Below, in pieces: positions 33,322-51,056 of a stretch of 64,000 nt of DNA. The notes under the pieces were generated by a model that did no database searches, was not told the origin of the DNA, and worked only from the letters and a program-made list of their open reading frames with translations. The stretch's first letter is position 1; the number at the start of each line of letters is the position of its first letter. The translations under genes and the position numbers were made by a program. Source of the DNA: an uncultured Syntrophaceae bacterium (GTDB taxonomy: Bacteria > Desulfobacterota > Syntrophia > Syntrophales > UBA4778); the NCBI GenBank assembly GCA_964597995.1, contig CAZRAC010000002.1, forward strand, positions 51-64,050. Reading direction: 5' to 3'.

Positions 33322-33402
33322 TTTGCCTCTCCTGTTTTTGGTGTCCCGATAACGATTGACAATCTTGTAAAAGGCAGCAAATCCACCTTAAACATCATGC
33401 CG

Positions 33403-33569
33403 GTGCGTCATCCCGATGAAAATCGGGGCGGCATCAAGGCGAATGGCCTTCAACGTCATACCGGCGACAGCCGGTATCCAGGGCTGTCAGCTGGTCACAA
33501 CATCGCTGGCCCCCGGCCTTCGCCGGGGTGACGACTTTATACGAGAACTTCACGATCGACGGGATCGTG
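33403..33569. repeat. Cluster of four short GC-rich hairpin (REP-like) units
   Basis: Perfect small palindromes: cccgat-gaaa-atcggg (33412-33427), taccggc-gaca-gccggta (about 33459-33476), ccccggc-cttc-gccgggg (about 33510-33527), cacgatc-gacgg-gatcgtg (33551-33569). The first unit recurs inverted at 47378-47396. Confidence 0.7.
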
Positions 33570-35066: not shown

Positions 35067-35253
35067 GGCTCTTCGAGGATATATAATCAAAAACCCTTCG
35101 CTATCGAACGGATACATTCTGGCTTCATACCCTGGAATTGTCAACCCGGAAGTTCGATTTTGGAGGAATCAAACGTCTTTACGCCGGGACCTCTACACCG
35201 GAGATGGCCTTCGGGAGGGGTCCGCGGACTTTTTTTGGACCGTGAGCCTTGGA

Positions 35254-37128
35254 ATGTCTTCTCAGTATGACGTGATCGTCGTCGGTGCGGGCCATGCGGG
35301 CTGCGAGGCCGCCCTCGCGGCGGCCCGGATGGGGTGCCGGACGTTGCTCTTCTCGATCAATCTCGACACCGTGGCGCATATGCCCTGCTCGCCTTCGATC
35401 GGCGGCGTGGGAAAGGGACACTTGGTGAAGGAAGTGGACGCCCTGGGGGGCGAGATGGGGAAGGCGGCGGACCTCACGGCCCTTCAATACCGAACCCTGA
35501 ACACCCGGAAAGGCCCGGCCGTCCGGAGCACCCGCACGCAGAACGACAAGGCCCGTTACCGGATACTCATGAAGGGCGTGGTCGAGCGCCAACCCCTGAT
35601 CGACCTGAAGCAGACGCTCGTCGAGGAGATACTTGCCGAGGGCGGCAGGGTCGTGGGGGTCCGGGATCATATCGGCGCGGAGTTCTTCGCACCGACAGTG
35701 GTCCTGACGACAGGGACCTTCCTCCACGGGCTGGTCCATATCGGGAGGAAGCAGATCCCCTCGGGGAGGGCCGGGGAGTTTCCGGCCGATGGCCTGGCCG
35801 AGAGCCTGAGGAACCTCGGGTTCAGGATGGGGAGGATGAAGACGGGAACGCCCGCCCGTGTCCGCCGGGACACCATCGACTTTTGCCGTTTCGCTGAACT
35901 GCGGGGAGACGAAGAGCCGAATCCCTTCTCCCTCTTCACGGAAAAGACGGAAATCACCCAGATTCCCTGCTACATCGGGCGTACCGGTGAGCGGACGGGG
36001 GAGATAATCCGGCGCAACATCCATCTCTCGCCCCTTTACAACGGGACCATCCAAGGGGTGTCGGCCCGGTATTGCCCGTCCTTAGAGGACAAGATGATGA
36101 AGTTTCCTGAGAGGGAGCATCACCAGATAATCCTCGAACCGGAGGGGCTCGACACCGAAGAGATCTACGTGAGCGGCACGGGCAATTCCTTGCCTTACGA
36201 GGTACAGATCGACCTCGTGCGGTCCGTTCCCGGCCTTGAAGAGGCCCGCATCATGCGGCCTGCCTACGCCATCGAGTACGACTTTGTCTACCCTACCCAG
36301 TTGAAACCGACGCTGGAAACGAAGCTAGTCGAGGGTCTGTTTTTCGCGGGACAGATAAACGGAACCTCTGGTTACGAGGAGGCGGCCGCCCAGGGACTCT
36401 GGGCGGGCATAAACGCGGCCCTCAAGGTGCAGAAGCGGCGGCCCTTCATCCTCGACCGTTCCGAGGCTTACATGGGTGTCATGGTCGACGACCTCGTCAC
36501 GAGGGGGACCCGCGAGCCTTACCGGATGTTCACGTCCCGCGCCGAATACCGACTTCTGTTGAGAGAGGACAACGCCGCCTTTCGCCTGGTCGAGAAGGGT
36601 TTCGAGCTCGGCCTCCAGGACAGAGAGGCCTTGGAAAGGGTAGTGGAGAAGGAAAGGCGCGTCGAGCTGGAGACGAGACGGCTGGAGCAGAAGAGGGTGA
36701 GGTCGACGCCGGAAGCGAACCGCATCCTCGAGAAGGCCGGCTCGGTTCCCATCGACGAATCCGCTACGCTCAGCCAGATACTGAAGAGGCCCGAGGTGTC
36801 CTATGCCGATGTCGAGGCGATCGAGGGCGTCATTTCCGACCTGCCCGCGGACGTGAAGAGGCAGGTTGAGGTTCGTTGTAAGTACGACGGCTACATCAGA
36901 CGCCAGGAGGCGGAGGTGAAAAAGTTCAAACACCTCGAAAGGCTGGAGATACCGGGGGACTTCGATTACCGCGGGATACCGGGGCTTTCCAACGAACTCA
37001 AGCAGAAACTCGGCGAGATACGCCCCCTTTCCCTGGGGCAGGCCTCGCGTATCGAAGGCATGACACCCGCCGCCCTTTCCGTGCTCATGGTCTTTCTCAA
37101 ACGGCACCGGGAAGGAAAAGCATCTTGA
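35254..37128 (+). CDS. mnmG: tRNA uridine 5-carboxymethylaminomethyl modification enzyme MnmG (GidA)
   Basis: The true start is the ATG at 35254 (MSSQYDVIVVGAGHAGCEAALAAARMG). The ORF-track start at 34933 is an upstream extension overlapping the neighbouring gene. The protein is GidA-like over its full length. Confidence 0.93.
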   Translation: MSSQYDVIVVGAGHAGCEAALAAARMGCRTLLFSINLDTVAHMPCSPSIGGVGKGHLVKEVDALGGEMGKAADLTALQYRTLNTRKGPAVRSTRTQNDKARYRILMKGVVERQPLIDLKQTLVEEILAEGGRVVGVRDHIGAEFFAPTVVLTTGTFLHGLVHIGRKQIPSGRAGEFPADGLAESLRNLGFRMGRMKTGTPARVRRDTIDFCRFAELRGDEEPNPFSLFTEKTEITQIPCYIGRTGERTGEIIRRNIHLSPLYNGTIQGVSARYCPSLEDKMMKFPEREHHQIILEPEGLDTEEIYVSGTGNSLPYEVQIDLVRSVPGLEEARIMRPAYAIEYDFVYPTQLKPTLETKLVEGLFFAGQINGTSGYEEAAAQGLWAGINAALKVQKRRPFILDRSEAYMGVMVDDLVTRGTREPYRMFTSRAEYRLLLREDNAAFRLVEKGFELGLQDREALERVVEKERRVELETRRLEQKRVRSTPEANRILEKAGSVPIDESATLSQILKRPEVSYADVEAIEGVISDLPADVKRQVEVRCKYDGYIRRQEAEVKKFKHLERLEIPGDFDYRGIPGLSNELKQKLGEIRPLSLGQASRIEGMTPAALSVLMVFLKRHREGKAS

Positions 37129-38212: not shown

Positions 38213-38809
38213 TCAAGATTTCCCGGCCGCTTTTTCTCTGTAACGGGCCATGATCTCCGACCGGGTGAGGATGGGGACTACAGGACGGACGTGCCGCTCG
38301 ATCAACTCCCGGCCGCCTTCTTCCCGGTCGATGAGGACGACGGCGAGCTCTACGGTCAGCCCTGCCTCCCGGGCGCTTTCGACCGCCGCGATGGTCGAGG
38401 CCCCGGTAGTCACCACGTCGTCGATGACGGCGACTTTATCGCCAGGCCTCACGTTTCCTTCTATCTTGCTCCGGGTCCCGTGGGCCTTGGCGTCCTTCCG
38501 GACGATGAATGACCGGATAGGGCGACCTTTCTCGAAGGAAATCAGGGCGAGGGCGTTGGCTATCGGGTCGGCGCCGAGGGTCAACCCCCCTGCCGCCTTC
38601 ACGTCCGTGTCCTTCAATATATCGAAGACGAGGTTGCCGATGAGGTACATCCCTTCCGGGTCGAGTGTCGTGGGTTTGCAATCGAAGTAGTAAGGGCTCT
38701 TCCTCCCCGAGGACAGCGTGAAGGGGTTATCCTCGTTGTACCGGAAAGACCGCTCGATGATGAGGTCGGCGAGCCTGTCCTTCATTTTTTCAAGGTCTTT
38801 GTTCGTCAT
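38213..38809 (-). CDS. pyrE: Orotate phosphoribosyltransferase
   Basis: 198 aa with the PRPP-binding loop KVAVIDDVVTTGAS and a type I PRTase fold. ATGA overlap with the metH stop. Confidence 0.88.
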   Translation of the reverse strand: MTNKDLEKMKDRLADLIIERSFRYNEDNPFTLSSGRKSPYYFDCKPTTLDPEGMYLIGNLVFDILKDTDVKAAGGLTLGADPIANALALISFEKGRPIRSFIVRKDAKAHGTRSKIEGNVRPGDKVAVIDDVVTTGASTIAAVESAREAGLTVELAVVLIDREEGGRELIERHVRPVVPILTRSEIMARYREKAAGKS

Positions 38810-41211
38810 GTCTTACCGAATATCTCCTCGAGTTTTCTGACCGCCTCGACGCCGTCTTTGGCGTATTCGGCGCCCAGGGATCGGGCGTAGGCCTTCGTCA
38901 CGACCGCGCCGCCGAGCAGGAATCGGCAGTCGGAACACTCCTTGGCGGCCAGCTCCATCACTTCCTTCATGCGTACCATGGTCGTCGTCATGAGGGCGGA
39001 CAACCCGACGACCGCTCCTCTGTGGGCCTTCGCTGCCTCGATGATTTTCCCTGCGGGCACGTCTTTCCCCAGGTCGATGACCCTGTAGCCGTGGTTTTTC
39101 ACCATCAGGGCGACGATGTTCTTCCCGATGTCGTGGATGTCCCCCTCGACCGTCGCGAGGATGACGGTCTTTCTGTCGTCGGCTGCAAGGTCTTCTTTGA
39201 GGTGGGGTTCGAGGTAATCCATGCCCTGCTTCATCGCCTCAGCGCTCGCGATGAGCTGGGGCAGGAAATACTCCCGCCTGTCGAACCTTCCCCCTACCTC
39301 GGTGATCGCCGGTATCATCACGTCCTCAACGAGGCCGAGGGGCGACGCCCCTGCGGCCAGGGCGGCGGCGAGCAACCTTCCTATGTCCTCCCGGTTGCCC
39401 TCCAGGATGGCCTGGTATACTTTTTCCTCCGGTGTCGTTGTTTCGGGGGTCTCTCGTTTCCCGGAGTTTGCGGCCTGTTCACTGAAACGGGCGATGAAAG
39501 CTGCCGCGTCCCCGTCCTTCTGGGTGAGGAGGTCGGAGGCGGCCTTGATGTTCATGAGCTCCGCCTGGCCGGGGTTGGCGATGGCGAGGGTCAGTCCCTT
39601 CCCGGCAGCCATGGCGAGGAAGGCGGCGTTTATCCACATTCTCCCCGGCATCCCGAAGGAGACGTTCGAGAGGCCGAGGACCGTTCTTGTGCCGAACCTG
39701 CGGGAGCACCACTCGACGGTTTCCAGCGTTTCCAGCGCCGCCCGGGGGTCCGCCGCGACGGTCATGACAAGCCCGTCGACGACCAGGTCCTCCTTCGTGA
39801 ACCCCCGCGCCCGTGCCCTCCGAAAGACATCCCGGATGACCTCCTTGCGTCTCGCCGCCGTCCGGGGGACCTCCCCCTTTGCGACGGGTAGGAGGATGAA
39901 CATGGCGCCGTATCTGGCCGCCGCCGCAAGCAACCTGTCGATTTTCTCTTCTTCGCCGGAGATTGAATTGAGCAAGGCCCGGCCCGGGTATCTCCTCAGA
40001 GCTGCTTCTATCGTCTCGACCTTCGGCGAGTCGATCACAAGGGGCAGGGCGGTGGCGACCGCGAGCACGTCGACGGCGCCAGTCATGGCCTTTACTTCGT
40101 CGATGCCGGGGACGCCGACATTGACGTCGAGGAGGTCTGCGCCTTCCCTCTCCTGGTCGCGGGCCATCTGGCGGACCAGGGTGAACCTTCCTTCCGTGAA
40201 TTCCTCCCGGAGGGCCTCCCTCAGGGCCTTTTTCCCCGTGGGGTTTATCCGCTCGCCGATGACCTTCAGGGCGCCTCCCCGGTCGAGAAAGACCGTCTTC
40301 CTCGGCGAGGTGAGGGCTGCGATCGACCTTTTCGCCGGCAGGATGGGTTTCTTGTTCTTCAAGTTCCTCTTCAGGGAACGGATGTGGTCGGGCGTCGTCC
40401 CGCAGCAGCCGCCCACTAGGGCGGCGCCGGCGGAGGCAAGCTCCTTTCCGAAGGCTCCGAACTCGGACGCGTCCATCGGGAAGACCGTCTCCCCTTCCTT
40501 GACGACCGGTATCCCGGCGTTCGGCTTCGCCGCGAGGGGGACGGTCGCGTGGGGCTTCATGGCGGAGATGAACCGCATCATGTCCTCGGGGCCGGTGGAG
40601 CAGTTGCAGCCCACGGCGTCGGCGCCGAGGCTCTGGAGGGTTACGAGGGCCGTCACCGGGTCCGTCCCGTTCAATGTCCGCCCGTCTTTCTCGAAGGTCA
40701 TCGTGACCACCGTGAAGAGGCCGGTGATCTCCCGCGCCGCGATCAAGGCGGCCCGCGCCTCCTGGATGTCCAACATGGTCTCGATGACCAGGAGGTCCAC
40801 GCCCCCTGCGATGAGCCCTTCTATCTGCTCCTTGAAGATGTCAACTGCTTCCTCGAAGTCGAGCGGACCGAAGGGCGAAACGAACCGACCCGTCGGGCCG
40901 ACGTCGCCGGCTACGAGGGCCTTCCCCTCCGCCGCTTCTTTTGCCAGTCGCGCGAGCTTCCGGTTTATCGCCTTCACGTCGGAGAGGCCGTATTCGGCGA
41001 GCTTCAGCCTGTTTGCCCCGAAGGTGGCCGTGTAGATGATGTCGGCCCCCGCCCGCCGATAGCCGGAGTGAACGGCCCGGATCGCTTCGGGATGGTCGAT
41101 ACACCAGGCCTCGGGGCAGACCCCCGACGGCATACCCATTCTGTGGAGCTCCGTCCCGGTGGCGCCGTCGAGGAGCAGGACCTTTTTCTTGAGGAGGCTC
41201 GGTATCTTCAT
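38806..41211 (-). CDS. metH: Methionine synthase core (Hcy-binding, pterin-binding and B12-binding modules, no AdoMet activation module)
   Basis: 801 aa with the Hcy S-methyltransferase N-terminus (LLDGATGTEL ... GGCCGTTP), a pterin-binding barrel, and the B12-binding DxHxxG motif (GDIHDIGKNIV). It ends right after the B12 Rossmann domain. Confidence 0.88.
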   Translation of the reverse strand: MKIPSLLKKKVLLLDGATGTELHRMGMPSGVCPEAWCIDHPEAIRAVHSGYRRAGADIIYTATFGANRLKLAEYGLSDVKAINRKLARLAKEAAEGKALVAGDVGPTGRFVSPFGPLDFEEAVDIFKEQIEGLIAGGVDLLVIETMLDIQEARAALIAAREITGLFTVVTMTFEKDGRTLNGTDPVTALVTLQSLGADAVGCNCSTGPEDMMRFISAMKPHATVPLAAKPNAGIPVVKEGETVFPMDASEFGAFGKELASAGAALVGGCCGTTPDHIRSLKRNLKNKKPILPAKRSIAALTSPRKTVFLDRGGALKVIGERINPTGKKALREALREEFTEGRFTLVRQMARDQEREGADLLDVNVGVPGIDEVKAMTGAVDVLAVATALPLVIDSPKVETIEAALRRYPGRALLNSISGEEEKIDRLLAAAARYGAMFILLPVAKGEVPRTAARRKEVIRDVFRRARARGFTKEDLVVDGLVMTVAADPRAALETLETVEWCSRRFGTRTVLGLSNVSFGMPGRMWINAAFLAMAAGKGLTLAIANPGQAELMNIKAASDLLTQKDGDAAAFIARFSEQAANSGKRETPETTTPEEKVYQAILEGNREDIGRLLAAALAAGASPLGLVEDVMIPAITEVGGRFDRREYFLPQLIASAEAMKQGMDYLEPHLKEDLAADDRKTVILATVEGDIHDIGKNIVALMVKNHGYRVIDLGKDVPAGKIIEAAKAHRGAVVGLSALMTTTMVRMKEVMELAAKECSDCRFLLGGAVVTKAYARSLGAEYAKDGVEAVRKLEEIFGKT

Positions 41212-41563
41212 CTTCCGGTGCGCAATCGTTGCAAAATCGAAAAACGGCGATTTACAGTAAACTTTGAAGGCGCCGATACTACCATCAACCCGATATGGGT
41301 GTCCAGTTTTTAGGGAGAGTTATAGAATCGCTTCTTCGATTAGAAGCCCATCCGGGTCCGCCACCAGCGTGAACAGGCGACCTTTGAGGTGAACTCGCGC
41401 AGAATCATAGCGCAGCCTGTTTCTGCGCGAGGCGATGAGGACTAAGGCGAGCGATTCATCTCTCTCGACCTTGCATTTGTTCGCTTATGGCTGCATGCAA
41501 GTTGTCAAGCGTACAATGCACAGTGTCCTCAACCACTTACCACTCTTGGTATCATAGAAAGAG

Positions 41564-44500
41564 TTACGATTTCCAATACGAGCCGCGACGATGCACGTGT
41601 TTATGGCTAGACCACAAGTTATGAAGACTCTCCCTCAACGCAAGGGTGTCCTGATGTTTTAGGTCGCGTTCTCCCCAAAGAAGCCACACTAAGGTTTGGT
41701 GGGTATGATTTAAATAACACTTCATCAAATCGGCGCGTAAGTACAGTAAGTGGGAGCGGAACGTGTCTTCATCGGCCTTGAACTTTCGATATATTGTGGC
41801 GACACGTCCGCCTTGATCGTATAAGTCCCATTCGCCTTGTCTATTAACTAAACTTAGTTGCTCACAAATTGCTGGGGCAGGAACCGTAATGCCGCTCACC
41901 TGATTGAGTGGACTGTGGTAGCCTTCCCAAGCAAAGCTGTAAACAGGCACTTCAACAGGAATCCCCGTACTGCTATGCCTCGAAAAAGCTTTCCGTATAT
42001 CGCGCTTTACTCTACCATCTTGTTCGCGGAGGTGTGATCCGAAACGGGGAGACCAAGGAATTTCGCCTGCGTATGTGTAGTAGTCTTCCGTTGGCTCCGG
42101 GATAGCCATATTGCCTGGGTACTCGACCGTCTTAAAAGCTGCCAATAGCTTTTTGACATGACCGCGTTCCACCAGCAAGCCCCGGAGAAAAGTAAATACA
42201 CACCTTGGGTCATCCTTTGAAGACTGCTCAATGTAACCGTCTAGAAGCACCCACGGGCCATCCTGACCATCCACTTCTTTAAGATGTAGCAGATGATTGT
42301 AATTTGGAATGGGGCCATCTGTGATCCATGCCCGAGGTTCTGCAGGAGTCTTGGTGAATAAATCGGGTAACGGGGGTTGCCAAGTCTTCGCAGGTTCAGG
42401 GAAGCTGGGATCAATGTCGGCGTCAGATGAGCGTTCGCCAGCTCGCCAATCCGGTAAAGTGCCCTCGTCGAACCTAATTCCATACATTTCAAAGAAAGCT
42501 ATCCAAGAATATTTCTTCCCGTATCTGTCTGTCTTTGGGACTCCACGGCTTTCAGCTCGCCATGATGAGCCGCGGATTCTCTTGTCTATCTCGGCAAACT
42601 GACTTGACCTGTATCCCAATTGCGCGATCCTGTATTCGATTTGATGCCTAACTTTTCGATATATTGAGTTATCAAAGTCGTAGTTTCTTCTATGCGGAAT
42701 CAGCCTGCCAATGGTATAGTTTCCGAAGTCCATAAGGATTGACCCCTTGGCTTCGGCTATATCAGAGTCGCTGATTTTATCCGGTTCCAAAAATGGTGAG
42801 GGAATTTGACTGAACGTAGGTTGTAAGTGCGTTCTCTGCTCATCTGGTATGCATCCGGGAGCCAACCGGGTTGCCAGATTGATTACACCCCGGGCATAGT
42901 CCCTCATCAAGACATGGCAGGTAGCGTGCGGAGCTTTAGGAACGAACATCTCCTCTACCAATTTGCGTGCAAAGTCAGGGAGTCCCTTACGTAGCTCTTC
43001 ACCCCGAGGATCGGCCCAAAGCGACATCACAACGCCGTAACACGCCGCAAGCATACGCTCAGGTACATAAGGGTCATTTATTTCCAGTGAGTTCAGTGTC
43101 AGATCAAATAGAGCCTTTGGATTGCTGCATCCAAACCAATACAACGCACGTGTGGCATGATCACGTAGCAGACGGACTGTGCTTGTGAGGGTCCACATCA
43201 TCCACCGTGCTTTCAACTGATCCCGGGGGCTTAGAGCCTGCACCGACCGCCAGCGTTGCTCTAACCACTTTATATCTTCAAGTATATCTTCTTGCCTGCT
43301 GCGAACCCATTCCGTCCATCGGCGATCGCGTTCCGCCATCGACATTGAGCGAAGAACTTCGTTCAAGAAATCCACATTCAGGGGATGGGCTTGAGCCGCA
43401 CGGGTGGTCCAGAGCCTATAGAATAGGTCACGGTGTCCTTGCGGCTGTTGAGCAGTAAGGGTGGCTAATTGTGATACTGTCTCACTATCCAAGAACTCCT
43501 TGTCCAACCATGCCGAGTTATAAAGAGCCTTTGTCCGGAGTGGTTCGTCCAACAGGGTCCAGAGTTGCTCTCTGTATCTGCGGCGAGGCGTCAGCCCCAC
43601 AAGAGCCGTAAAGATATCAGCTGCGAGTGGATGCTGCTCTCCTACATCACCCGCAATCATTTTTGTTGCTTCCGCTTGTAACCATCTCATAAACTCATCA
43701 GACCCTGCATACTTCTCAATCAGTGCATCGGCTACGAGATGACCGGCTAAGGCATCATAAACGACAGCTATCTGATTACCACCCAAACGGGGGTCGGATA
43801 CTCGGATGAGCACACGTTCCTGTTCCAGGGCTCGGATAATGCTCTGATCCCACGGACGAACATGATCGCCTAACCGTTCGCGTAATTCATCAAGATCAAG
43901 GCTGCGCGTTTTCGCTTCCCATAAACACAAGCCGATCTTGCTAAGCACGGTGCGAATGTCAGACTCAAAGTAACGCCAGGAACGAGGCGAGAGCTGTGCA
44001 ATGCGTTCTGCTACCTGTTCCAAGTATCGCTCAAACAATGAGGTCAGTGAGCCAGGCATCGCTTCAACACCTACGAGCCGCTCACGTTTAGGATTTGTCA
44101 CCTCGCAAAACATGCGCAACGTGAGTGGATGTTGGAGAAGTTCCAATGGTAGCGCTGCATCCGATGGGTCGATCTGGTAATATTTGAAATAACGGCGCAC
44201 TGCATCATAGATGTCGTGTCCAAAGCCTGGTATCTCCAATCGTTCAACCCCATCGGGCAGCGCCTCTTTAACAAAGTCTGAACGAAGAGTGCACACCACC
44301 ACGACATATGGATACCGGGCTAGCATCTCATTCAGTGATGCAAGTTGCTGCTTCCAGTCGCGAGGATCCTCTGCTTCGTTCAAGCCGTCAAGGACGATGG
44401 GTAAACGTCTGCCCGCACGCTGACCTGCAGCGTCTACGGCAGCGACTAACGCTGCGAAACTCTCTACAGGGCGGCCGTTGATAACAAATCTGCGAGCAAG

Positions 44501-45598
44501 ATCATCAAGGGTTCCTCGGGCTGCCAGGTCACGTCCGTGGATCAGGATACCGGCAGGACGGTTCTCTACCGGGGCAGTGAGTTGGGCTGATAGGTGAGTC
44601 TTACCATATCCTGCATCAGCAACAACCGCGATCAAGCGATCCTCCAGCGCCTTGCGAAAATCATCGAGGAGCCGATTAGCAGCGAAAATATCTGCCACCA
44701 CGTTAGTGGCCCGCAAAACGACAGGACGTCGCTCTCTCCTCAATCGGCGAAGCAAGACATTCCACCCAAGATCAGGACCGCCTCGGGCAGTAAGTGCTTG
44801 ATGCACGATTTCATAATCTCCACCTGCCAAAGCGGTATGCGTCTGACCTAAGGTGTCTGCAACGAGAGTTGCGGTCACGACTAACCTACTGACCTCTTCC
44901 ACGATGTCCTTAGGCAAACTTGCCAGCTCAGTGCTGACAGCAGCAACACCATCCCGAAGCCGGTTTGTCACCGCTGTCAGATCAGACCAAGCTTCCTCCT
45001 CACCCAATGTGCGACGAAGTGAACGCTCGGCATCCACAATTTGGTGTGCTTCAGGCAGCCATCTTCCTGAAATACGCGCAACCGATTCATTATGCTTGTC
45101 GCTCAGCAAGTCCGGCGTAAGAACGAGTTCGCCGAAATAGGTACCGCGAAGGATTTCTGCGGGCCCACTGAGATGTGTTTCAACATCAGCGGCCGTCCAA
45201 AGATGGAGCCTCATGTGTGTTTGCAAACCATAGAACCATTCCTGATCACCTTCCGTCAGAGTGTGTCTTGTCCAGAGAATCCAGTCGGTCAATTCGGGAA
45301 GAATTTCTTTTGTCTTCCTGATAGCCTCCTCAATTTGTCTTCTCCGTGTATTTCCGATGGCCCGTCCACTCTGAAGGTCATACCACCTGCATTGCCAGCC
45401 ATACCAGCGCCCAGGTTCTCCCAGAGGGCACCTTGCGTGTAGTTTTAAGTGGAACTCAACCCCTGGTTGATTAGCAAGGGCGCGAAAATCACCATATTGC
45501 CCATAGTGCAGGCGAATGATTGCACGGCACAGTTGCTCGAAGTTGCGGGTTTCATCCCCAGGCAATGTCGCAAATATTTTCCAGTTCAATGCAGGCAC
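41564..45598 (-). CDS. NACHT/STAND-family NTPase with a distinct N-terminal domain and an ~880-aa C-terminal region of unknown fold
   Basis: 1344 aa, GTG start preceded by GGGAGGGAGG. Walker A is ADAGYGKT (aa 327-334, nt 44597-44620) and Walker B is IVLDGLNE (aa 401-408, nt 44375-44398). VVVVCTLRSD and LEIPGFG...YF follow in NACHT order. Confidence 0.75.
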   Translation of the reverse strand: MPALNWKIFATLPGDETRNFEQLCRAIIRLHYGQYGDFRALANQPGVEFHLKLHARCPLGEPGRWYGWQCRWYDLQSGRAIGNTRRRQIEEAIRKTKEILPELTDWILWTRHTLTEGDQEWFYGLQTHMRLHLWTAADVETHLSGPAEILRGTYFGELVLTPDLLSDKHNESVARISGRWLPEAHQIVDAERSLRRTLGEEEAWSDLTAVTNRLRDGVAAVSTELASLPKDIVEEVSRLVVTATLVADTLGQTHTALAGGDYEIVHQALTARGGPDLGWNVLLRRLRRERRPVVLRATNVVADIFAANRLLDDFRKALEDRLIAVVADAGYGKTHLSAQLTAPVENRPAGILIHGRDLAARGTLDDLARRFVINGRPVESFAALVAAVDAAGQRAGRRLPIVLDGLNEAEDPRDWKQQLASLNEMLARYPYVVVVCTLRSDFVKEALPDGVERLEIPGFGHDIYDAVRRYFKYYQIDPSDAALPLELLQHPLTLRMFCEVTNPKRERLVGVEAMPGSLTSLFERYLEQVAERIAQLSPRSWRYFESDIRTVLSKIGLCLWEAKTRSLDLDELRERLGDHVRPWDQSIIRALEQERVLIRVSDPRLGGNQIAVVYDALAGHLVADALIEKYAGSDEFMRWLQAEATKMIAGDVGEQHPLAADIFTALVGLTPRRRYREQLWTLLDEPLRTKALYNSAWLDKEFLDSETVSQLATLTAQQPQGHRDLFYRLWTTRAAQAHPLNVDFLNEVLRSMSMAERDRRWTEWVRSRQEDILEDIKWLEQRWRSVQALSPRDQLKARWMMWTLTSTVRLLRDHATRALYWFGCSNPKALFDLTLNSLEINDPYVPERMLAACYGVVMSLWADPRGEELRKGLPDFARKLVEEMFVPKAPHATCHVLMRDYARGVINLATRLAPGCIPDEQRTHLQPTFSQIPSPFLEPDKISDSDIAEAKGSILMDFGNYTIGRLIPHRRNYDFDNSIYRKVRHQIEYRIAQLGYRSSQFAEIDKRIRGSSWRAESRGVPKTDRYGKKYSWIAFFEMYGIRFDEGTLPDWRAGERSSDADIDPSFPEPAKTWQPPLPDLFTKTPAEPRAWITDGPIPNYNHLLHLKEVDGQDGPWVLLDGYIEQSSKDDPRCVFTFLRGLLVERGHVKKLLAAFKTVEYPGNMAIPEPTEDYYTYAGEIPWSPRFGSHLREQDGRVKRDIRKAFSRHSSTGIPVEVPVYSFAWEGYHSPLNQVSGITVPAPAICEQLSLVNRQGEWDLYDQGGRVATIYRKFKADEDTFRSHLLYLRADLMKCYLNHTHQTLVWLLWGERDLKHQDTLALRESLHNLWSSHKHVHRRGSYWKS

Positions 45599-45616
45599 AA
45601 CGTCCTCCCTCCCATC

Positions 45617-46030
45617 TCAAGAAGACCTGCCACGCCCGTACCCTGTATTAGGATAGTTATGGGCCGAATACACTTCTACCTTAGCACCTTTATCTAAGAG
45701 AACCTTGAGGAATGCAGAAACATCCGCCTCCTCTGTAGTAATAACTACTTTGTTGCCATCGACATCAACCTGAACGTCATAAAGTAGTTGCTCCAATTCT
45801 GCCGGACCAAGAATGTACAGATTTGCTGCTCTCAAGAGTTCCAACATTCCGTCTGTGAACCGATCTTGGGGAACTGTATTACTCTGGTTCTTGTCCGCAT
45901 CATCCTTTACCTGACCAGCAAGCTGGCTAAGCAAGTCTTTGGCTTTTTCTGCATCGCTGACTTCTTTGAAGTGCCCGATCATAACAAGATTCATGGAGTG
46001 TTCAGAGCCATAGCCCTTCCAAATCTTCAT
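45617..46030 (-). CDS. Hypothetical 137-aa protein (no family recognised), translationally coupled between the radical SAM and NACHT genes
   Basis: The ORF track starts at 46045. The ATG at 46030 is preceded by GGGAGG at 7 nt and overlaps the upstream stop (ATGA). No TM segment or signal peptide is seen. The tail is Gly/Arg/Tyr-rich (YSAHNYPNTGYGRGRSS). Confidence 0.6.
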   Translation of the reverse strand: MKIWKGYGSEHSMNLVMIGHFKEVSDAEKAKDLLSQLAGQVKDDADKNQSNTVPQDRFTDGMLELLRAANLYILGPAELEQLLYDVQVDVDGNKVVITTEEADVSAFLKVLLDKGAKVEVYSAHNYPNTGYGRGRSS

Positions 46031-46965
46031 TTTGCAACCTCCCACATTGATTCAAGCATTCTTAGAGCTTCCATTACCCCTCCCGACGCAATGGGGATAC
46101 CATGTTTATCATACGATGATCTTTTGATTGTTCCTGATGCATCGATATGAGCATATGCACGAAGCTCAGTTTCTCTGGGCAAGGGGTCCGCAATGGGCAT
46201 ACTGTCCCGACCTACTTCGCTTACAGCTATACGAATGGGGCCAGCATAAGAGTGCACCCACCTGCGCAGTGCTTGCATTGTGCTATTGTCAATACCGCTT
46301 CCCTTGTTTGTAGGGAGCTGCGGAAGTAGGAGAAACTCAGATGCACCGACTTCTGCTGCCAGCGCGATAGCTGCGTCTATTTCGGGAAGAGTGAGGCAGT
46401 TTACCAGATAATTGATGCCAAAGGGAGCACACTCACGAATCACTTCAAGCTTTTGGAGTAGTGCTGAAAAAGACCGGTTACGTATCTTCTCATATGTGGC
46501 GCCGATGCCGTCCATGCTGACGCGGATGAAATGTACATTTCCCTTTAAGGTAGCGGCCAATCGGCCATCGATGTGGTGTCCATGTGTTGTGAATGTCGCA
46601 GCCATGCCGGTGTTTTGGGTAACATGGTTGCATATATGAAGCAGGTTTTTGTACAAAGTTGGTTCACCGCCTCCGAAACCGACACCAATACACCCATTTG
46701 CATCAAGCTCGTCTAACCAATCAATTAACCGGCCCATACTAAGCATGGCCGGATTTTTGGGCGCAAAACAATGAGGACAATCAAGATCACATGCATTCGC
46801 TAACGCAATCGAGACATGGCGTGGCGCAGTGGACCACAACTCCTGAGCCACTTTAGCGTCGTCGATAAGAAGGTTCAGTCCTGTCTCGCGACTAAAAAGG
46901 AGGATGCCATCGGGGCCTGTTCGCACTTTGAACCGATGGAGCATTTTAACTATACCAGGCCGCAT
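46027..46965 (-). CDS. Radical SAM enzyme (no SPASM/twitch auxiliary Cys cluster evident)
   Basis: 312 aa with CxxxCxxC at C59/C63/C66 (ANACDLDCPHCF, nt 46768-46791) and the SAM-binding GGGEP (aa 98-102). The C-terminal half has only two isolated Cys. Confidence 0.8.
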   Translation of the reverse strand: MRPGIVKMLHRFKVRTGPDGILLFSRETGLNLLIDDAKVAQELWSTAPRHVSIALANACDLDCPHCFAPKNPAMLSMGRLIDWLDELDANGCIGVGFGGGEPTLYKNLLHICNHVTQNTGMAATFTTHGHHIDGRLAATLKGNVHFIRVSMDGIGATYEKIRNRSFSALLQKLEVIRECAPFGINYLVNCLTLPEIDAAIALAAEVGASEFLLLPQLPTNKGSGIDNSTMQALRRWVHSYAGPIRIAVSEVGRDSMPIADPLPRETELRAYAHIDASGTIKRSSYDKHGIPIASGGVMEALRMLESMWEVAK

Positions 46966-46972
46966 ATTTGTA

Positions 46973-47001
46973 ATTTTATCAAGAGTAAATCACATCGTTA
47001 A
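46973..47001 (-). promoter_or_regulatory. Putative sigma70-type promoter of the cassette (TTAACG-N17-TAAAAT)
   Basis: Read on the minus strand, the -35 TTAACG is at 47001-46996 and the -10 TAAAAT at 46978-46973, ending 7 nt before the ATG at 46965. There is no SD before that ATG, so the mRNA may be leaderless or short-leader. Confidence 0.3.
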
Positions 47002-47018
47002 TTCTAATTCTCCCTCGG

Positions 47019-47291
47019 TCAGGTCAGTGCCCGGTCATACCACATAAGTAGCTTCGGGTCTTCCTGGAGGACGTTCTCGGGAATCTTGCGGGCCACGGTG
47101 ATGATGGTGGCGTAGTCGCGCTCCTGCCAGGCCTTCTTAAATCCGGCGCGGACGGCCTCGTACTTGTCGGAGACGTACTTGAAGAGCAGGGTGAGGATGT
47201 AGTCCTTGTACTGAGAGGCGTCCATGCCGCCCCGCAGTTCGTCACAGGATTGCCAGAGGGAGGAATAGAGCTGCGATTTTTTCAGGGCCAT
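47019..47291 (-). pseudogene. hsdM: Truncated type I R-M methyltransferase (HsdM-like) remnant
   Basis: 90-aa ORF. The first about 44 aa (MALKKSQLYSSLWQSCDELRGGMDASQYKDYILTLLFKYVSDKY) match the HsdM N-terminal domain. No AdoMet-binding or NPPY/F catalytic region follows, and the ORF is far shorter than any functional HsdM. Confidence 0.65.
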
Positions 47292-47329
47292 CGGTCAGTA
47301 CCTCATCGCATCCATTGTTCTTCTACCTT

Positions 47330-47405
47330 GCGCTTCCCCACCGCCGGGAAAACTCGAGATTGAATATACTGGATTCCGCCCCGATTTTCATCGGGCTGAC
47401 GCGCC
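47330..47405. repeat. REP-like hairpin units (inverted copy of the 33.4-kb unit)
   Basis: gccccgattttcatcgggc (47378-47396) is the reverse complement of the cccgatgaaaatcgggg unit at 33412-33428, and the flanks also match (gcgtca.cccgatgaaaatcggggcgg.atc). A second small palindrome, ttccc...gggaa, lies at about 47334-47350. Confidence 0.65.
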
Positions 47406-47453
47406 GGAATGGCAAAAATGGTGATCCTCGATTTTTTTGCGAGTCGATCAATG

Positions 47454-48083
47454 CTATGCCTTTATGGGCTCGATGCCGGCAAGGGCCGTAACGGATTTTT
47501 CGGGCACGAGCAGGCAGGCCTCCGTCAGTCGGACGCCGAGCTGGTCGAGGCCGAGGGTCCTGTATATCCACTCCTGGTTTTGCAGCGGAAAGTCGCCGTA
47601 GCCCGCGGAAAAACGCCTTTTCGTGAGTCTGCGGTTTTCCCGGCGGAGTTTCCCTTCGAGGTACGCCATCATCCAGTCCAGGGCAAGGTCCACCACTTCG
47701 CTCGCCGCCGCGTCCAGGACCACGGCGCGGGTCATTCTGCCCCGCTCTGTATCTTTTTTGATTTCCTCCATGATGGCGGCCCCGGCGGTTGCGCCCATCA
47801 GCATGACTTCGTCCGAATGCCTGAGCAGCCCGGCGAGGCTTCTGCTCGCCAGCGTCTCGCCGTTCGCGAGTTTGATTTCCGTGTCCTTTTCCCTGTCGAT
47901 GGCCAACCGGACGGCAACACCGGCAAGGCGGATGAGGGAGAGGGCGTCGTCGATCGCACGGTCTGTTTCCTCCGCCTCGTGGGGCTTGAGGCGGGTCGTC
48001 CCTTTCCGGTATCCCAGCCGTCTGTAGATCTTTTCTTTCGGTGCCGCGAGGGTTATGGTGTCAAAAAAAAATGAACGTGCCAT
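47454..48083 (-). CDS. Stand-alone methionine synthase reactivation (AdoMet-binding, Met_synt_B12) domain protein
   Basis: 209 aa. RFSAGYGDFPLQNQEWIYRTLGLDQLGVRLTEACLLVPEKSVTALAGI matches the MetH activation-domain signature (RxxxGYxxxP ... P.KS). Confidence 0.78.
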   Translation of the reverse strand: MARSFFFDTITLAAPKEKIYRRLGYRKGTTRLKPHEAEETDRAIDDALSLIRLAGVAVRLAIDREKDTEIKLANGETLASRSLAGLLRHSDEVMLMGATAGAAIMEEIKKDTERGRMTRAVVLDAAASEVVDLALDWMMAYLEGKLRRENRRLTKRRFSAGYGDFPLQNQEWIYRTLGLDQLGVRLTEACLLVPEKSVTALAGIEPIKA

Positions 48084-48221
48084 GAGGTTATCCGGCCCCG
48101 TCTTAGCTCCTTTCCCTCTTGTTTTGGGGACTTATCTCCATATAACACTTCCGGCCGTCAAACTAAAGGCCAAAGATTTTTAGCGAAGAGATCTCATCCT
48201 TGACAACGGTTCGAGGGCTGT

Positions 48222-48380
48222 GCTAAGGGTCACGCCAGATGGGACAAGGGAAGACGGTGGGAATCCGTCGCGGTCGCGCCGCTGTTACCGGGACGAAAGC
48301 CTTTGAAACCACTGCCCGCTTCAGGCGGGTGGGAAGGTCGGCGAGTAGGGGGAACCGGGAGCCAGAAGACCTACCCATCG
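48222..48380 (+). promoter_or_regulatory. Cobalamin (B12) riboswitch aptamer
   Basis: Conserved core agggaagacggtgggaatccgtcgcggtcgcgccgctgttaccggg, the B12 box aaccactgcccgcttcaggcgggtgggaaggtc, and the closing gccagaagacctaccc. It lies directly upstream of the cob operon. Confidence 0.85.
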
Positions 48381-48446
48381 ACGAAACCTGATACCGACCT
48401 TCGCGCCATAGGGTCGGTTTCGAGTCTGCGCCGGATGGAAAACGTC

Positions 48447-48481
48447 ATCCCTGGGCCTTGATGGGTCTGGGGATTTTTTTT
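48447..48481 (+). terminator. Intrinsic terminator (riboswitch expression platform)
   Basis: 11-bp stem AUCCCUGGGCC / GGUCUGGGGAU (three G-U pairs) with a 6-nt loop, followed by a T8 run at 48474-48481, immediately before the first cob gene. Confidence 0.65.
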
Positions 48482-48491
48482 GGTGAGGGCG

Positions 48492-51056
48492 ATGACGGCA
48501 GGGCACGGCGGTAATGTGAGACAACTAGCTCTACTGGCGGGGGTCCCGGAAGGCGAGCTGCTCGACTTTTCGGCGAACATAAACCCCCTCGGCCCCCCCG
48601 AATGGCTCCGCACCGTCGTCAGCTCTCGCCTCCATGAGCTCTCCCGCTACCCGGACCCCGATTGCCGGGCCTTGACCGAGACCGCCGCTCGCCGTTACGG
48701 CGTAAGGCCCGGGGAGGTCATCGCCGGGAACGGCTCTTCGGAGATCATCCGCTTCATCCCCCGTGTTTTCCCGGCGGAGTGCGCCCTCATCCCCGTCCCC
48801 GCCTATGCGGATTACGCCCTGGCCGCGCAACTGGCCGGCCTCCGGGTGGAAAAGTTCTTTGCGCGGGAGGAAGACGGGTTCATCCCGGACATTGACGCAT
48901 TCGGGAAGGCGGTCGGGGAGAGGGACATCGTCTTCCTCGGCCAGCCCAACAACCCGACGGGCGCCCTGTGCGACGCCGACCGTATCCGCCGGCTCGCCGG
49001 CGAGCATCCTTCCACCCTCTTTGTCGTCGATGAGGCCTTCGCCGACTTCGTCGAGGGTATGGAAAGACTGACGCAAAAAAGGCCGCCGAACGTCCTCGTC
49101 CTCTGCTCGCTCACGAAGTTCTATGCCTTGCCGGGCCTGAGGCTGGGCCTCGCCGTCGGGGACGAGGCGGTGGTCGGCCGGCTGCGCGACGCCCTGCCGC
49201 CCTGGTCGGTGAACGCCCTCGCGCAGGCCGTGGGTGAGGAGGCCTTGAGAGATGAGGACTACGCGCAACGGACGAGGGAACTCGTGCGGCGGGAGCGGGA
49301 GAGGCTTGCCGGTTGGCTGGCGGGGATTCCCGGCCTGACCGTTTACCCCGGACAGGCGAATTTTCTCCTCTTGCGGCTGGACCGGAAGGGGACGACCGCA
49401 CCCCGCCTTGCCGAGCAGCTTCTCAAGCGGGGGATCGCCGTGCGCGTTTGCGACAATTTCGACGGGCTCGACGAGCGGTTTCTCCGGGTCGCCGTGCGGA
49501 CGGAAGAGGAAAACGCCCGTTTGGTTGATGCAGTTGCGACGGTGCTCGGCAGACCGCGGAAGGCGGTGAAAAAGAGAACACCCGCCGTGATGTTTCAGGG
49601 GACGGCATCGAATGCGGGCAAGAGCGTACTCGCGGCGGCCTTCTGCCGGATCCTCCTCCAGGACGGTTACAGCCCCGCGCCTTTTAAGGCCCAGAACATG
49701 TCGCTCAATTCCTTCGTCACCGGGGAGGGGGGAGAAATGGGACGGGCGCAGGTCGTCCAGGCCCAGGCCTGCCGCATCACTCCGGACGTGCGGATGAACC
49801 CGATCCTCCTGAAACCGAACAGCGACACGGGCGCGCAGGTCATCGTCCTGGGGAGGCCGGTGGGGAACATGGATGTAGAGACCTATATCCGTTTCAAATC
49901 AAGGGCCTTCGACACGGTTAAGGATGCCTACGATTCCCTCGCCCAAAATCACGACGTGATGGTCCTCGAGGGGGCCGGCAGCCCCGCGGAGGTGAACCTC
50001 AAGCACCACGATATCGTGAACATGCAGATGGCCCGCCATGCGGGTGCCCCCGTCCTCATCGTGGGCGACATCGACCGGGGAGGCGTCTTCGCTTCCTTTG
50101 TGGGCACGATGGAGTTACTCGCGGAATGGGAAAGGGCGTTGGTCGCGGGCTTCGTCGTCAACCGTTTTCGCGGGGATGAAAGACTCTTGCAGGACGCCCT
50201 CGATTATACAATGCGTCACACCGGCAGGCCGACCTTCGGCATCGTCCCCTATCTCCAAGACCTCGGGCTGCCGGAGGAGGATTCGGTCGCCTTCAAGGCG
50301 GCCGCCGCCGAGGCGCCTCCCGGAGGCGAGGCCGTGGAGGTGGGGCTCGTGGACCTTCCCCATATATCGAACTTTACCGATTTCGACTCCCTGCGCCTGG
50401 AGCCCGACGTCCGTCTGCGGGTCATCCGGTCGTCCCGCGACATCGGGAACCCCGACGCACTCATCATCCCCGGCAGCAAGAACGTGATCGGCGACCTGGA
50501 TTATCTCTTCCAGAACGGGCTGGCGCGGAAGGTCATGGAGCTCGCCGCCTCCGGGAAAACGGAGGTGGTGGGGATATGCGGGGGTTTTCAGATCCTGGGC
50601 GAAGGGATCGCAGACCCCTACGGGGTCGAGTCCGACCGGCGCCGGGTGAGGGGACTGGGGATTTTGCCCGTCACGACGACGCTTGAGGAGGAAAAGACCC
50701 TGGCCTGCGTCAAGGGGAGGCACGTCGAGTCCGGCCTCACCGTGCAGGGTTACGAGATCCACCACGGCCGGACCGTGGGACCGGGCCTTGTTCCCGCCGT
50801 CGAGCGGGAAGACGGGGAGATCCTGGGCGTGCGGACGGCGGAGGGCCTGGCCTGGGGGACATATCTTCACGGGATATTCGACGCCGACGATTTCCGCCGG
50901 TGGTTCGTCGACAGGCTGCGGGTGCGGCGGGGGCTGGCGCCCGCGGGGAGAACCCTTTCCCGTTACGACCTGGAGCCCGCTTTCGACCGGCTGGCAGCGG
51001 TGGTGCGCCGGAGCCTGAGGATAGGAGAAATCTACCGGCTGATGGGCCTCCGATGA
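48492..51056 (+). CDS. cobQ: Fusion protein: L-threonine-O-3-phosphate decarboxylase (CobD, class I/II aminotransferase fold) + cobyric acid synthase (CobQ/CbiP)
   Basis: A single ORF. The N-terminal about 360 aa are CobD-like (GHGGN ... NPLGPP ... NPTG ... [14 protein letters not shown]). From about nt 49590 it is CobQ-like ([13 protein letters not shown] ... GATase domain [10 protein letters not shown]). The ATG at 48492 is preferred over the ORF-track start at 48480. Confidence 0.8.

What the first reader, a model, noticed from the sequence alone, without database searches (positions are those of the whole stretch)
38806..48083. The islet splits a two-gene (split) methionine synthase locus
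Seen: the 801-aa MetH ends right after the B12-binding domain (DxHxxG at GDIHDIGKNIV) and lacks the AdoMet reactivation module. A separate 209-aa ORF (47454-48083, same strand) carries that module (RFSAGYGDFPL ... PEKSVTALAGI). The two genes are 6.2 kb apart. The interval contains only the hsdM remnant, REP-like hairpins and the low-G+C cassette. Established: full-length MetH is a four-module protein. In some bacteria, such as Thermotoga, the reactivation module is a separate polypeptide. Inference: the two genes were once adjacent and co-transcribed, and this junction has acted as an integration or turnover hotspot for defence genes. Transcription of metH now depends either on read-through across about 6 kb or on its own promoter in 41212-41470.
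Basis: partly seen in the sequence, partly recalled or inferred. Interest (0 to 1): 0.6.

Follow-up and report, generated by a model that had tools for sequence, protein, structure and literature searches.

The report
Defence-gene hotspot splitting a two-gene methionine synthase
In this Syntrophales bacterium a 6.1-kb block of anti-phage genes sits between the two genes that together make B12-dependent methionine synthase; close relatives carry other defence systems, or nothing, at the same spot, so this is a clear but ordinary example of a defence-gene hotspot.

Summary

- **The two genes.** metH (38806-41211, minus strand) has the homocysteine, pterin, cap and B12 domains and no activation domain. 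The 209-aa ORF (47454-48083, minus strand) is a stand-alone activation protein of the Thermotoga TM0269 type. Its predicted structure matches PDB 1J6R at TM 0.78/0.83, and the next 18 matches are all MetH reactivation domains.
- **Ancestral state.** In 68 of 80 species-level genomes metH follows this gene within about 260 nt. The closest strain found (97.6% nt identity) has an empty junction.
- **The island.** It spans 41245-47360. It carries a known three-gene defence operon: Avap1 (radical SAM), Avap2 (DUF6375) and Avs2, the KpAvs2 type.
- **The "hsdM remnant".** It is a chimera. The first 46 codons come from a type I hsdM that is intact at this site in relatives. The last 46 codons are the end of a BREX PglXI methylase that travels with the Avs2 trio elsewhere.
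- **Other cargo at the same junction.** Relatives carry a type I R-M system with a GmrSD-like gene, an IS3-family element, a DUF499/DUF1156 BREX-related system, or BrxF.
- **metH expression.** A 73-nt IS3-like end with a promoter-like motif lies 65 nt upstream of metH in every island-bearing strain found. Its function is untested.

This is a new member of known kinds, of modest interest.

The parts
38806..41211 (-). metH core: homocysteine-binding, pterin-binding, cap and B12-binding domains, with no activation domain
   Evidence: Pfam and NCBIfam matches. The ORF is 801 aa. Its stop overlaps the start of the pyrE-like gene by 4 nt.
41212..41244 (-). Native 33-nt metH leader with the ribosome-binding site GGAAG. 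It is shared with the empty-site strain.
   Evidence: Homology between L103/L104 and the window begins at 41244. JGI contig L100 also starts there.
41245..41317 (-). Right-end module of the island: a diverged IS3-family left-end remnant (CCCTAAAAACTGGACA...)
   Evidence: It is shared by the window, L101, L102 and L108; its 15-nt core motif also occurs once, upstream of metH, in L105-L107. It is absent from the empty site in L103. The 16-mer, with one mismatch, is the left end of the IS3-family element in L102. The similarity extends beyond the 16-mer.
41276..41305 (-). Promoter-like site TGGACA-N18-TAGTAT with a TG extension, 65 nt upstream of the metH ATG
   Evidence: Found by the consensus scan (8 sites against 5.9 expected, so weak on its own). 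The hexamers are conserved in all island-bearing strains.
41318..41563 (.). 246-nt spacer after the avs2 stop, unique to this strain. It contains the hairpin 41394-41431, which has no T-run after it.
   Evidence: No homologue in any fetched locus by blastn or tblastx. Hairpin. The fold is not unusual (z = -1.3).
41564..45598 (-). avs2: a STAND NTPase of AVAST type 2, 1344 aa, full length
   Evidence: PADLOC Avs2 E=1.4e-123. NCBIfam Avs2 E=1.3e-87, and the Avs4 nuclease N-terminus matches residues 5-118 at E=8.5e-6. Homologues are 1340-1350 aa long.
45617..46030 (-). avap2 (DUF6375), 137 aa. Its ATG overlaps the avap1 stop in an ATGA motif.
   Evidence: Pfam PF19902 at 176.5 bits. Gene call. 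Named Avap2 in PMC11564622.
46027..46965 (-). avap1: radical SAM protein, 312 aa
   Evidence: Pfam Radical_SAM E=2.3e-13. PADLOC pVip-like E=1.7e-15. Named Avap1 in PMC11564622.
46966..47018 (-). AT-rich spacer (G+C 0.30) with the promoter-like site TTAACG-N17-TAAAAT (46973-47001) ahead of avap1
47019..47159 (-). Last 46 codons of a BREX PglXI-type methylase, carried along with the Avs2 trio
   Evidence: DNA homology with L098 and L099 runs from 47159 down to the avs2 stop. 43 of 48 aa are identical to the C-terminus of the 1000-aa PglXI in L099. PADLOC PglXI positions 867-914 of 919.
47160..47291 (-). First ~46 codons of a type I hsdM, fused in frame to the pglXI end (together the 90-aa ORF 47019-47291)
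   Evidence: 93.9% nt identity to the start of the intact 815-aa hsdM of L101. The crossover is GACAAGTAC|GAGGCC. Pfam HsdM_N.
47292..47360 (-). Left end of the island: the region upstream of hsdM, shared with the R-M and IS alleles
47361..47453 (-). Native intergenic DNA after the activation gene. It includes a 32-nt REP-like element (47376-47407). About 60-70 nt of the native spacer are deleted relative to L101 and L103.
   Evidence: L103 nt 1-30 equal 47390-47361 at 100%. Alignments. A second, inverted copy lies at 33400-33431.
47454..48083 (-). Stand-alone MetH activation (reactivation) protein, 209 aa, TM0269 type
48210..48392 (+). Context: a cobalamin riboswitch ahead of the divergent cobD/cobQ-cbi operon
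   Evidence: Rfam RF00174 at 90.5 bits.

Best explanation
The activation-protein gene and metH form an ancestral two-gene unit, a split B12-dependent methionine synthase of the Thermotoga TM0268/TM0269 kind but with the small gene first. In this group of Syntrophales strains the short spacer between the two genes has become a hotspot where defence DNA is gained, swapped and eroded.

In the window the spacer holds a 6.1-kb island (41245-47360). It consists of:
- the upstream region and first 46 codons of a type I hsdM;
- fused in frame to these, the last 46 codons of a BREX PglXI methylase;
- an apparently intact Avap1-Avap2-Avs2 operon;
- 246 nt of unknown origin;
- a 73-nt fossil of an IS3-family left end.

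The most likely history, which is inferred, runs as follows.
1. An R-M island like the one still present in L101 occupied the site.
2. Most of it was replaced by illegitimate recombination with DNA cut out of a BREX type 3 locus, in which the Avs2 trio sits between pglXI and brxH. About 4 nt of microhomology mark the hsdM/pglXI joint.
3. The right-hand joint formed at an IS end.

All cargo points the same way as the two host genes. metH can therefore still be reached by read-through, and it may also use the promoter-like site in the IS-end module. Both routes are inferred and neither has been shown.
For: **Identity of the two host genes.**

**Ancestral adjacency.** 68 of 80 species-level genomes have the genes adjacent, with a median gap of 48 nt. 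L007 and L014 are syntenic and empty. The closest strain, L103/L104, has an empty junction.

**Hotspot.** Four other kinds of cargo sit at the same junction in relatives with 91-94% nt identity in the flanks:
- type I R-M with a GmrSD-like gene (L101, L105-107; PADLOC MTase_I and REase_I E=0);
- an IS3-family element (L102);
- a DUF499 system (L108-110; PADLOC E=0);
- BrxF (L011-13; E=1.6e-25).

The JGI assembly breaks at the junction.

**Cassette identity.** PADLOC Avs2 1.4e-123, Pfam DUF6375 at 176 bits, and radical SAM. The trio is described as the KpAvs2 operon in PMC11564622. It is conserved in L098 and L099.

**Chimeric remnant.** The 5' half is 93.9% identical to the hsdM of L101. The 3' half matches the PglXI of L099 at 43 of 48 aa, and DNA homology with L098 and L099 starts exactly at 47159. 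In L098 and L099 the trio lies between PglXI and BrxH.

**IS-end module.**

**Foreign composition.** G+C is 0.46-0.51 in the cassette against 0.61-0.64 in the two flanking genes.

**No barrier to read-through.** No terminator-like site on the minus strand lies between avs2 and metH.
Against: - The empty-site contigs L103 and L104 start only 120 nt upstream of metH. The activation gene itself is not seen on them. Only the intergenic sequence that follows it in the other strains is present.
- The order of events is a reconstruction from a handful of metagenome contigs. Relatives at 91-94% identity may be sister species rather than strains.
- Across the wider order, inserts at this junction are mostly not defence genes: response regulators, an isocitrate-dehydrogenase-family gene and a rubrerythrin. 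Only L073 carries a Hachiman-like pair. The defence hotspot is therefore a feature of this clade, not of the gene pair in general.
- The promoter call is a weak consensus match (8 found against 5.9 expected) in an organism whose promoters are not characterised.
- No expression data exist.
Confidence: 0.85

Rival explanations
1. The island is one self-mobile element (an integrative element or composite transposon) that inserted in a single step between the two genes.
For: An IS3-like end lies at the right edge, and a related IS occupies the site in L102. The cassette has foreign G+C.
Against: - The interval has no integrase, transposase or tRNA gene.
- There are no flanking direct repeats or terminal inverted repeats.
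- The IS-like end is in the wrong orientation to be an outer terminus, and it is shared by alleles with unrelated cargo.
- The left part (hsdM 5' end and its upstream region) is shared with the R-M and IS alleles. The Avs2 block is therefore nested inside an older island.
Confidence: 0.07
2. The Avs2 block did not come from outside. A BREX type 3 allele with the trio embedded was already at this very junction, as in the BrxF strain. The window allele arose by recombination between that allele and the R-M allele, followed by loss of brxH, pglZ and brxA.
For: - BrxF, the first gene of BREX type 3, follows the activation gene directly in L011-13.
- The window keeps a pglXI 3' end.
- In L098 and L099 the trio lies between pglXI and brxH.
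Against: - The BrxF contigs end after about 240 nt, so their content is unknown.
- The best non-identical Avs2 in the protein database is only 77% identical. Fragments on short contigs could have been missed.
- There is no brxH remnant downstream of avs2 by tblastx.
Confidence: 0.25
3. The two genes are functionally independent here. The 209-aa protein is not the MetH partner, or the split arrangement was never an operon in this lineage.
For: The Pfam Met_synt_B12 match is below threshold. The genes are 6.2 kb apart.
Against: The fold and profile matches to TM0269 and to MetH reactivation domains are clear. R157, G161 and Y162 are invariant across 23 family members; I read them, from memory, as the RxxxGY AdoMet-binding motif. 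The genes are adjacent in 68 of 80 genomes and at the empty junction of the closest strain.
Confidence: 0.02

Closest known systems
Split cobalamin-dependent methionine synthase TM0268/TM0269 of Thermotoga maritima (Huang et al. 2007 Protein Sci, cited in PMC7857596; PDB 1J6R)
   Same: The MetH core lacks the activation domain, and a separate protein of about 200 aa has the activation-domain fold. The predicted structure matches 1J6R at TM 0.78/0.83. An RFSAGY motif is present.
   Different: - The small gene is upstream of metH here, not downstream.
- Sequence identity to TM0269 is only about 23%.
- In this strain the pair is separated by 6.2 kb of defence DNA.
- No biochemistry has been done.
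KpAvs2 operon (Avap1-Avap2-Avs2) of Klebsiella pneumoniae (Bechon et al. 2024, PMC11564622)
   Same: The gene order and content are the same: a radical SAM protein, a DUF6375 protein and a large Avs2 STAND NTPase with an N-terminal nuclease-like region. The genes are tightly coupled.
   Different: The host is a Syntrophales bacterium. The operon carries the stub of a BREX pglXI gene upstream, and in two relatives it is embedded in a BREX type 3 locus. An Mrr-type nuclease domain was not confirmed here with Pfam.
Core-gene-flanked defence hotspots (P. aeruginosa cDHS, PMC10250203; E. coli defence islands, PMC10121019)
   Same: The flanking genes are conserved, the cargo between them varies and is mostly defence genes, and empty alleles exist. 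Replacement rather than simple insertion is evident.
   Different: The flanks are the two halves of one enzyme system that are normally separated by only tens of nucleotides. All cargo is co-oriented with them. No integrase or tRNA is associated.
BREX type 3 loci with embedded auxiliary defence genes (PMC12839542)
   Same: The pglXI 3' stub upstream of the trio, and the L098/L099 contexts (BrxC ... PglXI, the trio, BrxH), fit embedding of extra effectors inside BREX loci.
   Different: In the window only 140 nt of pglXI survive. No other BREX gene is present.

Membership tests
Split MetH (TM0268/TM0269 type) | MetH polypeptide with homocysteine, pterin, cap and B12 domains and no activation domain | tested here: met
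   Four Pfam domains end at residue 782 of 801. The protein aligns to positions 2-831 of the 1182-position TIGR02082 model.
Split MetH (TM0268/TM0269 type) | Separate small protein with the fold of the MetH activation domain | tested here: met
   Model pLDDT 91. Foldseek matches 1J6R at E=2.7e-13 and TM 0.78/0.83, and ranks 2-19 are all MetH reactivation domains. The family profile hits 1J6R at E=5.5e-12. Pfam PF02965 alone is below its cut-off.
Split MetH (TM0268/TM0269 type) | AdoMet-binding RxxxGY motif (recalled from the E. coli MetH literature) | tested here: met
   R157-F-S-A-G161-Y162. R157, G161 and Y162 are invariant in 23 family members.
Split MetH (TM0268/TM0269 type) | The two genes are adjacent | tested here: not met
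   They are 6242 nt apart in the window. They are adjacent in 68 of 80 related genomes and at the empty junction in L103.
Split MetH (TM0268/TM0269 type) | The small protein is required for reductive reactivation of MetH | not testable with these tools
   This needs an enzyme assay.
Avap1-Avap2-Avs2 (KpAvs2-type) defence operon | Avs2-family STAND NTPase | tested here: met
   PADLOC Avs2 PDLC02164 at E=1.4e-123 over residues 2-966. NCBIfam Avs2 gives 295 bits, below its equivalog cut-off of 1000.
Avap1-Avap2-Avs2 (KpAvs2-type) defence operon | Adjacent DUF6375 (Avap2) and radical SAM (Avap1) genes | tested here: met
   PF19902 at 176.5 bits and PF04055 at E=2.3e-13. These are the criteria used in PMC11564622. 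The same trio occurs in L098 and L099.
Avap1-Avap2-Avs2 (KpAvs2-type) defence operon | N-terminal Mrr-family endonuclease effector | tested here: inconclusive
   Only the NCBIfam Avs4 nuclease N-terminus matches residues 5-118, at E=8.5e-6. Pfam finds nothing even at E<=1.
Avap1-Avap2-Avs2 (KpAvs2-type) defence operon | Protects against phage | not testable with these tools
   This needs infection assays.
Core-gene-flanked defence hotspot | Same flanks with different cargo in related genomes, including empty alleles | tested here: met
   Five occupied states and one empty state.
Core-gene-flanked defence hotspot | Cargo is predominantly defence genes | tested here: met
   Within the clade the cargo is Avs2, type I R-M with a GmrSD-like gene, a DUF499 system, and BrxF. 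Across the wider order the cargo is mostly not defence genes.
Self-mobile integrative element or composite transposon | Integrase or transposase, terminal repeats, target-site duplication | tested here: not met
   The island has no such gene, there is no tRNA gene, and there are no flanking repeats. Only a 73-nt IS-end fossil is present.

The most novel reading that the evidence does not exclude
The hotspot is tolerated inside an essential two-gene unit because each island carries, at its metH-proximal edge, an outward-facing promoter that derives from an IS3-family left end. In addition, all cargo is kept co-oriented. Under this reading IS3-family elements were attracted to the REP-like hairpins in the native spacer, founded the hotspot, and left the promoter that now drives metH. 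This would link expression of SAM-dependent defence genes to the methionine/SAM cycle.
Probability: 0.12. Interest if true: 0.5.

Novelty: new member of a known kind. Interest (0 to 1): 0.3.

Why it matters
The locus is a clean natural series: one empty allele and five different occupied alleles of a single junction. It shows defence systems being replaced in place by illegitimate recombination between unrelated methylase genes, rather than by a mobile element. It shows that a hotspot can sit between the two genes of a split enzyme. It extends the Avap1-Avap2-Avs2 operon to anaerobic syntrophs and shows it embedded in BREX type 3 loci. None of this changes current concepts. Its value is as a well-resolved example, and as a caution for annotation: the activation protein escapes Pfam, and the 90-aa "hsdM" ORF is a fusion of two genes.

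Tried and rejected
- **Island ends.** A search for target-site duplications or terminal inverted repeats found only chance-level short repeats. The window has no tRNA gene.
- **RNA families.** Rfam scans of the region and of the empty-site loci found only the cobalamin riboswitch of the cob operon and an unrelated tRNA. No riboswitch precedes metH or the activation gene.
- **Spacer fold.** Folding of the avs2-metH spacer is not more stable than shuffles (z = -1.3). The 41394-41431 hairpin lacks a U-run, so it was not called a terminator.
- **The 246-nt segment 41318-41563.** blastn and tblastx against all fetched loci gave only self hits, so a brxH remnant was rejected.
- **Small ORFs in both spacers.** None was convincing.
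- **Avs2 end domains.** Pfam on the N- and C-terminal parts found nothing.
- **Metagenome scans.** Two scans, one with an exact 23-mer of the metH leader and one with the activation protein, gave 0 and 1 uninformative loci.
- **L004.** It first looked like a variant lacking the cassette. It is 100% identical to the window, and only the gene calls differ.
- **Huang et al. 2007.** The paper could not be opened. It is cited through PMC7857596.

Full report
**What is in the sequence**

On the minus strand, 38806-41211 encodes an 801-aa MetH. It has the homocysteine S-methyltransferase domain (12-283), the pterin-binding domain (320-544), the B12 cap (595-668) and the B12-binding domain (682-782), and then it stops. 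It aligns to positions 2-831 of the 1182-position TIGR02082 metH model, so the activation module is missing.

On the same strand, 6242 nt upstream, 47454-48083 encodes a 209-aa protein. Pfam alone would not identify it, because Met_synt_B12 scores 16 bits against a cut-off of 25. Other evidence is clear:
- It matches PDB 1J6R, the stand-alone activation protein TM0269 of Thermotoga maritima, at E=5e-8.
- A 23-member family profile hits 1J6R at E=5.5e-12, and the C-terminal part of full-length MetH at E=7.5e-4.
- An AlphaFold model (pLDDT 91, pTM 0.86) matches 1J6R at TM 0.78/0.83 and E=2.7e-13. The next 18 matches are all MetH reactivation domains from Thermus, human and E. coli.
- R157, G161 and Y162 of RFSAGY are invariant in the family. 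From memory of the E. coli MetH literature, this fits the RxxxGY AdoMet-binding motif.

Split MetH is already known: Huang et al. [quoted passage not shown]

**What lies between the genes**

The low-G+C cassette (0.46-0.51 against 0.61-0.64 for the two flanking genes) is three tightly packed genes on the same strand:
- a radical SAM protein (46027-46965);
- a DUF6375 protein (45617-46030), whose ATG overlaps the preceding stop in an ATGA motif;
- a 1344-aa STAND NTPase (41564-45598) that matches PADLOC Avs2 at E=1.4e-123.

This is the Avap1-Avap2-Avs2 operon described for Klebsiella pneumoniae. There Avap2 binds Avs2 and is needed for defence, and about 5% of Avs2 homologues have such partners (PMC11564622). 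Homologues of the Avs2 protein occur in very different phyla at 50-77% identity, always at 1340-1350 aa. The gene therefore looks intact and horizontally acquired. The same trio is found in two other metagenome contigs, L098 and L099.

**The "hsdM remnant" is a chimera**

PADLOC matches residues 1-62 of the 90-aa ORF (47019-47291) to the N-terminus of type I methylases. It matches residues 43-90 to the extreme C-terminus of PglXI, the BREX type 3 methylase.

DNA homology between the window and L098/L099 does not stop at avap1. It runs on to 47159, in the middle of this ORF. In L099 that stretch is the end of a 1000-aa PglXI, with 43 of 48 residues identical. In both L098 and L099 the trio lies between pglXI and brxH of a BREX type 3-like locus (BrxC and PglXI at E=0, BrxH at 1e-40 to 1e-62).

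The other half, 47160-47291 together with the 70 nt upstream, is 93.9% identical to the start of an intact 815-aa hsdM. That hsdM occupies this very site in a close relative (L101).

The joint is ...GACAAGTAC|GAGGCCGTC..., with about 4 nt of microhomology. The Avs2 block therefore arrived as a piece cut from a BREX locus, and it was joined to a resident R-M island by illegitimate recombination.

**Were the genes once adjacent?**

Yes.
- A scan of one genome per species with the family profile returned 80 loci. In 68 of them metH starts within about 260 nt of the activation gene, with a median of 48 nt.
- The nearest syntenic species (L007-L010, L014) have the cob operon, the activation gene, a 35-50 nt gap, metH and the pyrE-like gene in the same order as the window.
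- The closest strain found (L103/L104, 97.6% nt identity over 9.6 kb) shows the decisive junction. Its first 30 nt equal window 47390-47361. The next 58 nt are native spacer, as seen to the left of the island in L101. From nt 89 it equals the window from 41244 downward.

This defines the island as 41245-47360 (6116 nt). It also shows that the window has lost about 60-70 nt of native spacer. One caveat applies: these two contigs begin 120 nt before metH, so the activation gene itself is not on them.

**Is the junction a hotspot?**

Yes, within this clade. MetH proteins at 90% identity or more led to contigs whose flanks are 91-94% identical in nt to the window. They carry different cargo at the same place:
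- hsdM-hsdS-GmrSD-like-hsdR-YgjP-like, 9.1 kb (L101, L105-107);
- a shorter hsdM stub followed by an IS3-family element (L102, GCA_033812145.1);
- a DUF499-DUF3780-DUF1156 methylase-PLD helicase system, called BREX-related in PMC12839542 (L108-110);
- BrxF directly after the stop codon of the activation gene (L011-13).

The JGI assembly of the window's own strain breaks at this junction.

The window and L102 keep hsdM stubs with different breakpoints (47155 against 47199). They are therefore independent derivatives of an R-M-bearing allele.

Outside the clade, 12 of the 80 species have something between the two genes or have lost the linkage. The cargo there is mostly regulators or metabolic genes. 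One has a Hachiman-like pair (L073). The defence hotspot is thus local to this clade.

**The right edge and metH expression**

The window, L101, L102 and L108 share 41245-41317, and L105-L107 carry its core motif upstream of metH. The empty allele lacks it.

This module begins with CCCTAAAAACTGGACA. With one mismatch, the same 16-mer is the left end of the IS3-family element in L102, and the similarity extends further inward. I read the module as a fossil of an IS3-family left end.

In the window the outermost bases (TATAACTCTCCC) resemble the L102 IS end more than they resemble the L101 version. This hints that the right-hand joint was made at an IS end.

The module contains TGGACA-N18-TAGTAT with a TG extension, 65 nt before the metH ATG. 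It is conserved in all these strains.

No terminator-like site on the minus strand lies between avs2 and metH, and all cargo in all five occupied alleles is co-oriented with metH. Read-through and a local promoter are therefore both possible. Neither has been shown.

**Verdict**

What is there is a defence hotspot of a known kind, carrying a known defence operon, inside a known kind of split enzyme locus. The new details are:
- the chimeric methylase stub;
- the BREX origin of the Avs2 block;
- the exact island limits;
- the IS-end module;
- the allele series.

I rate it a new member of known kinds, with interest 0.3.

Noticed in passing
window 48210-48392 (+), 48480-51056 (+) and beyond; L007 9345-9534: A cobalamin riboswitch precedes a CobD-type aminotransferase/CobQ fusion gene (858 aa) and a cbi/cob operon. 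These are transcribed divergently from the activation gene, so B12 synthesis genes sit next to the B12-dependent enzyme. The layout is conserved in the nearest species.
   Followed up: partly
window 47376-47407 and 33400-33431: A 32-nt intergenic element with the hairpin CCCGA-TGAAAA-TCGGG occurs twice in the window, in opposite orientation, at 94% identity. Similar CCGGCG...ATCCAG hairpins occur in the native spacer of relatives. This is a possible REP-like family and a possible target for IS3-family insertion (the second point is from memory only).
   Followed up: partly
L099 2-13304; L098 1021-7810: In two unrelated metagenome contigs the Avap1-Avap2-Avs2 trio is embedded in a BREX type 3-like locus between pglXI and brxH. 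I did not see this context mentioned in the passages of the Avs2 and BREX papers that I read.
   Followed up: partly
L073 11209-15291: In an uncultured Syntrophus sp. chromosome (OY762510) a 263-aa gene and a 1096-aa HamB-like helicase gene lie between the activation gene and metH. The helicase matches PADLOC HamB at E=5.6e-30. This may be a Hachiman-like system; the small protein has no match.
   Followed up: partly
window 41110-41244: In JGI sample 3300010347 the assembly breaks here. One contig ends at 41110 and another starts at 41244. This is what strain variants at the junction in the same sample would produce.
   Followed up: no
window 41318-41563: This 246-nt stretch after avs2 has no homologue in any fetched locus. 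It contains a 14-bp-stem hairpin (41394-41431) with no U-run after it. Its origin is unknown.
   Followed up: yes
L101 4027-5841: A 604-aa GmrSD_N-domain gene sits between hsdS and hsdR of the type I R-M system that occupies the junction in relatives. It looks like a type IV-like enzyme nested inside a type I operon.
   Followed up: no
window 34933-37128: The longest ORF for the MnmG/GidA gene is 731 aa, but gene calls in related contigs give 624-628 aa. The first ~100 codons of the ORF are probably not translated.
   Followed up: no
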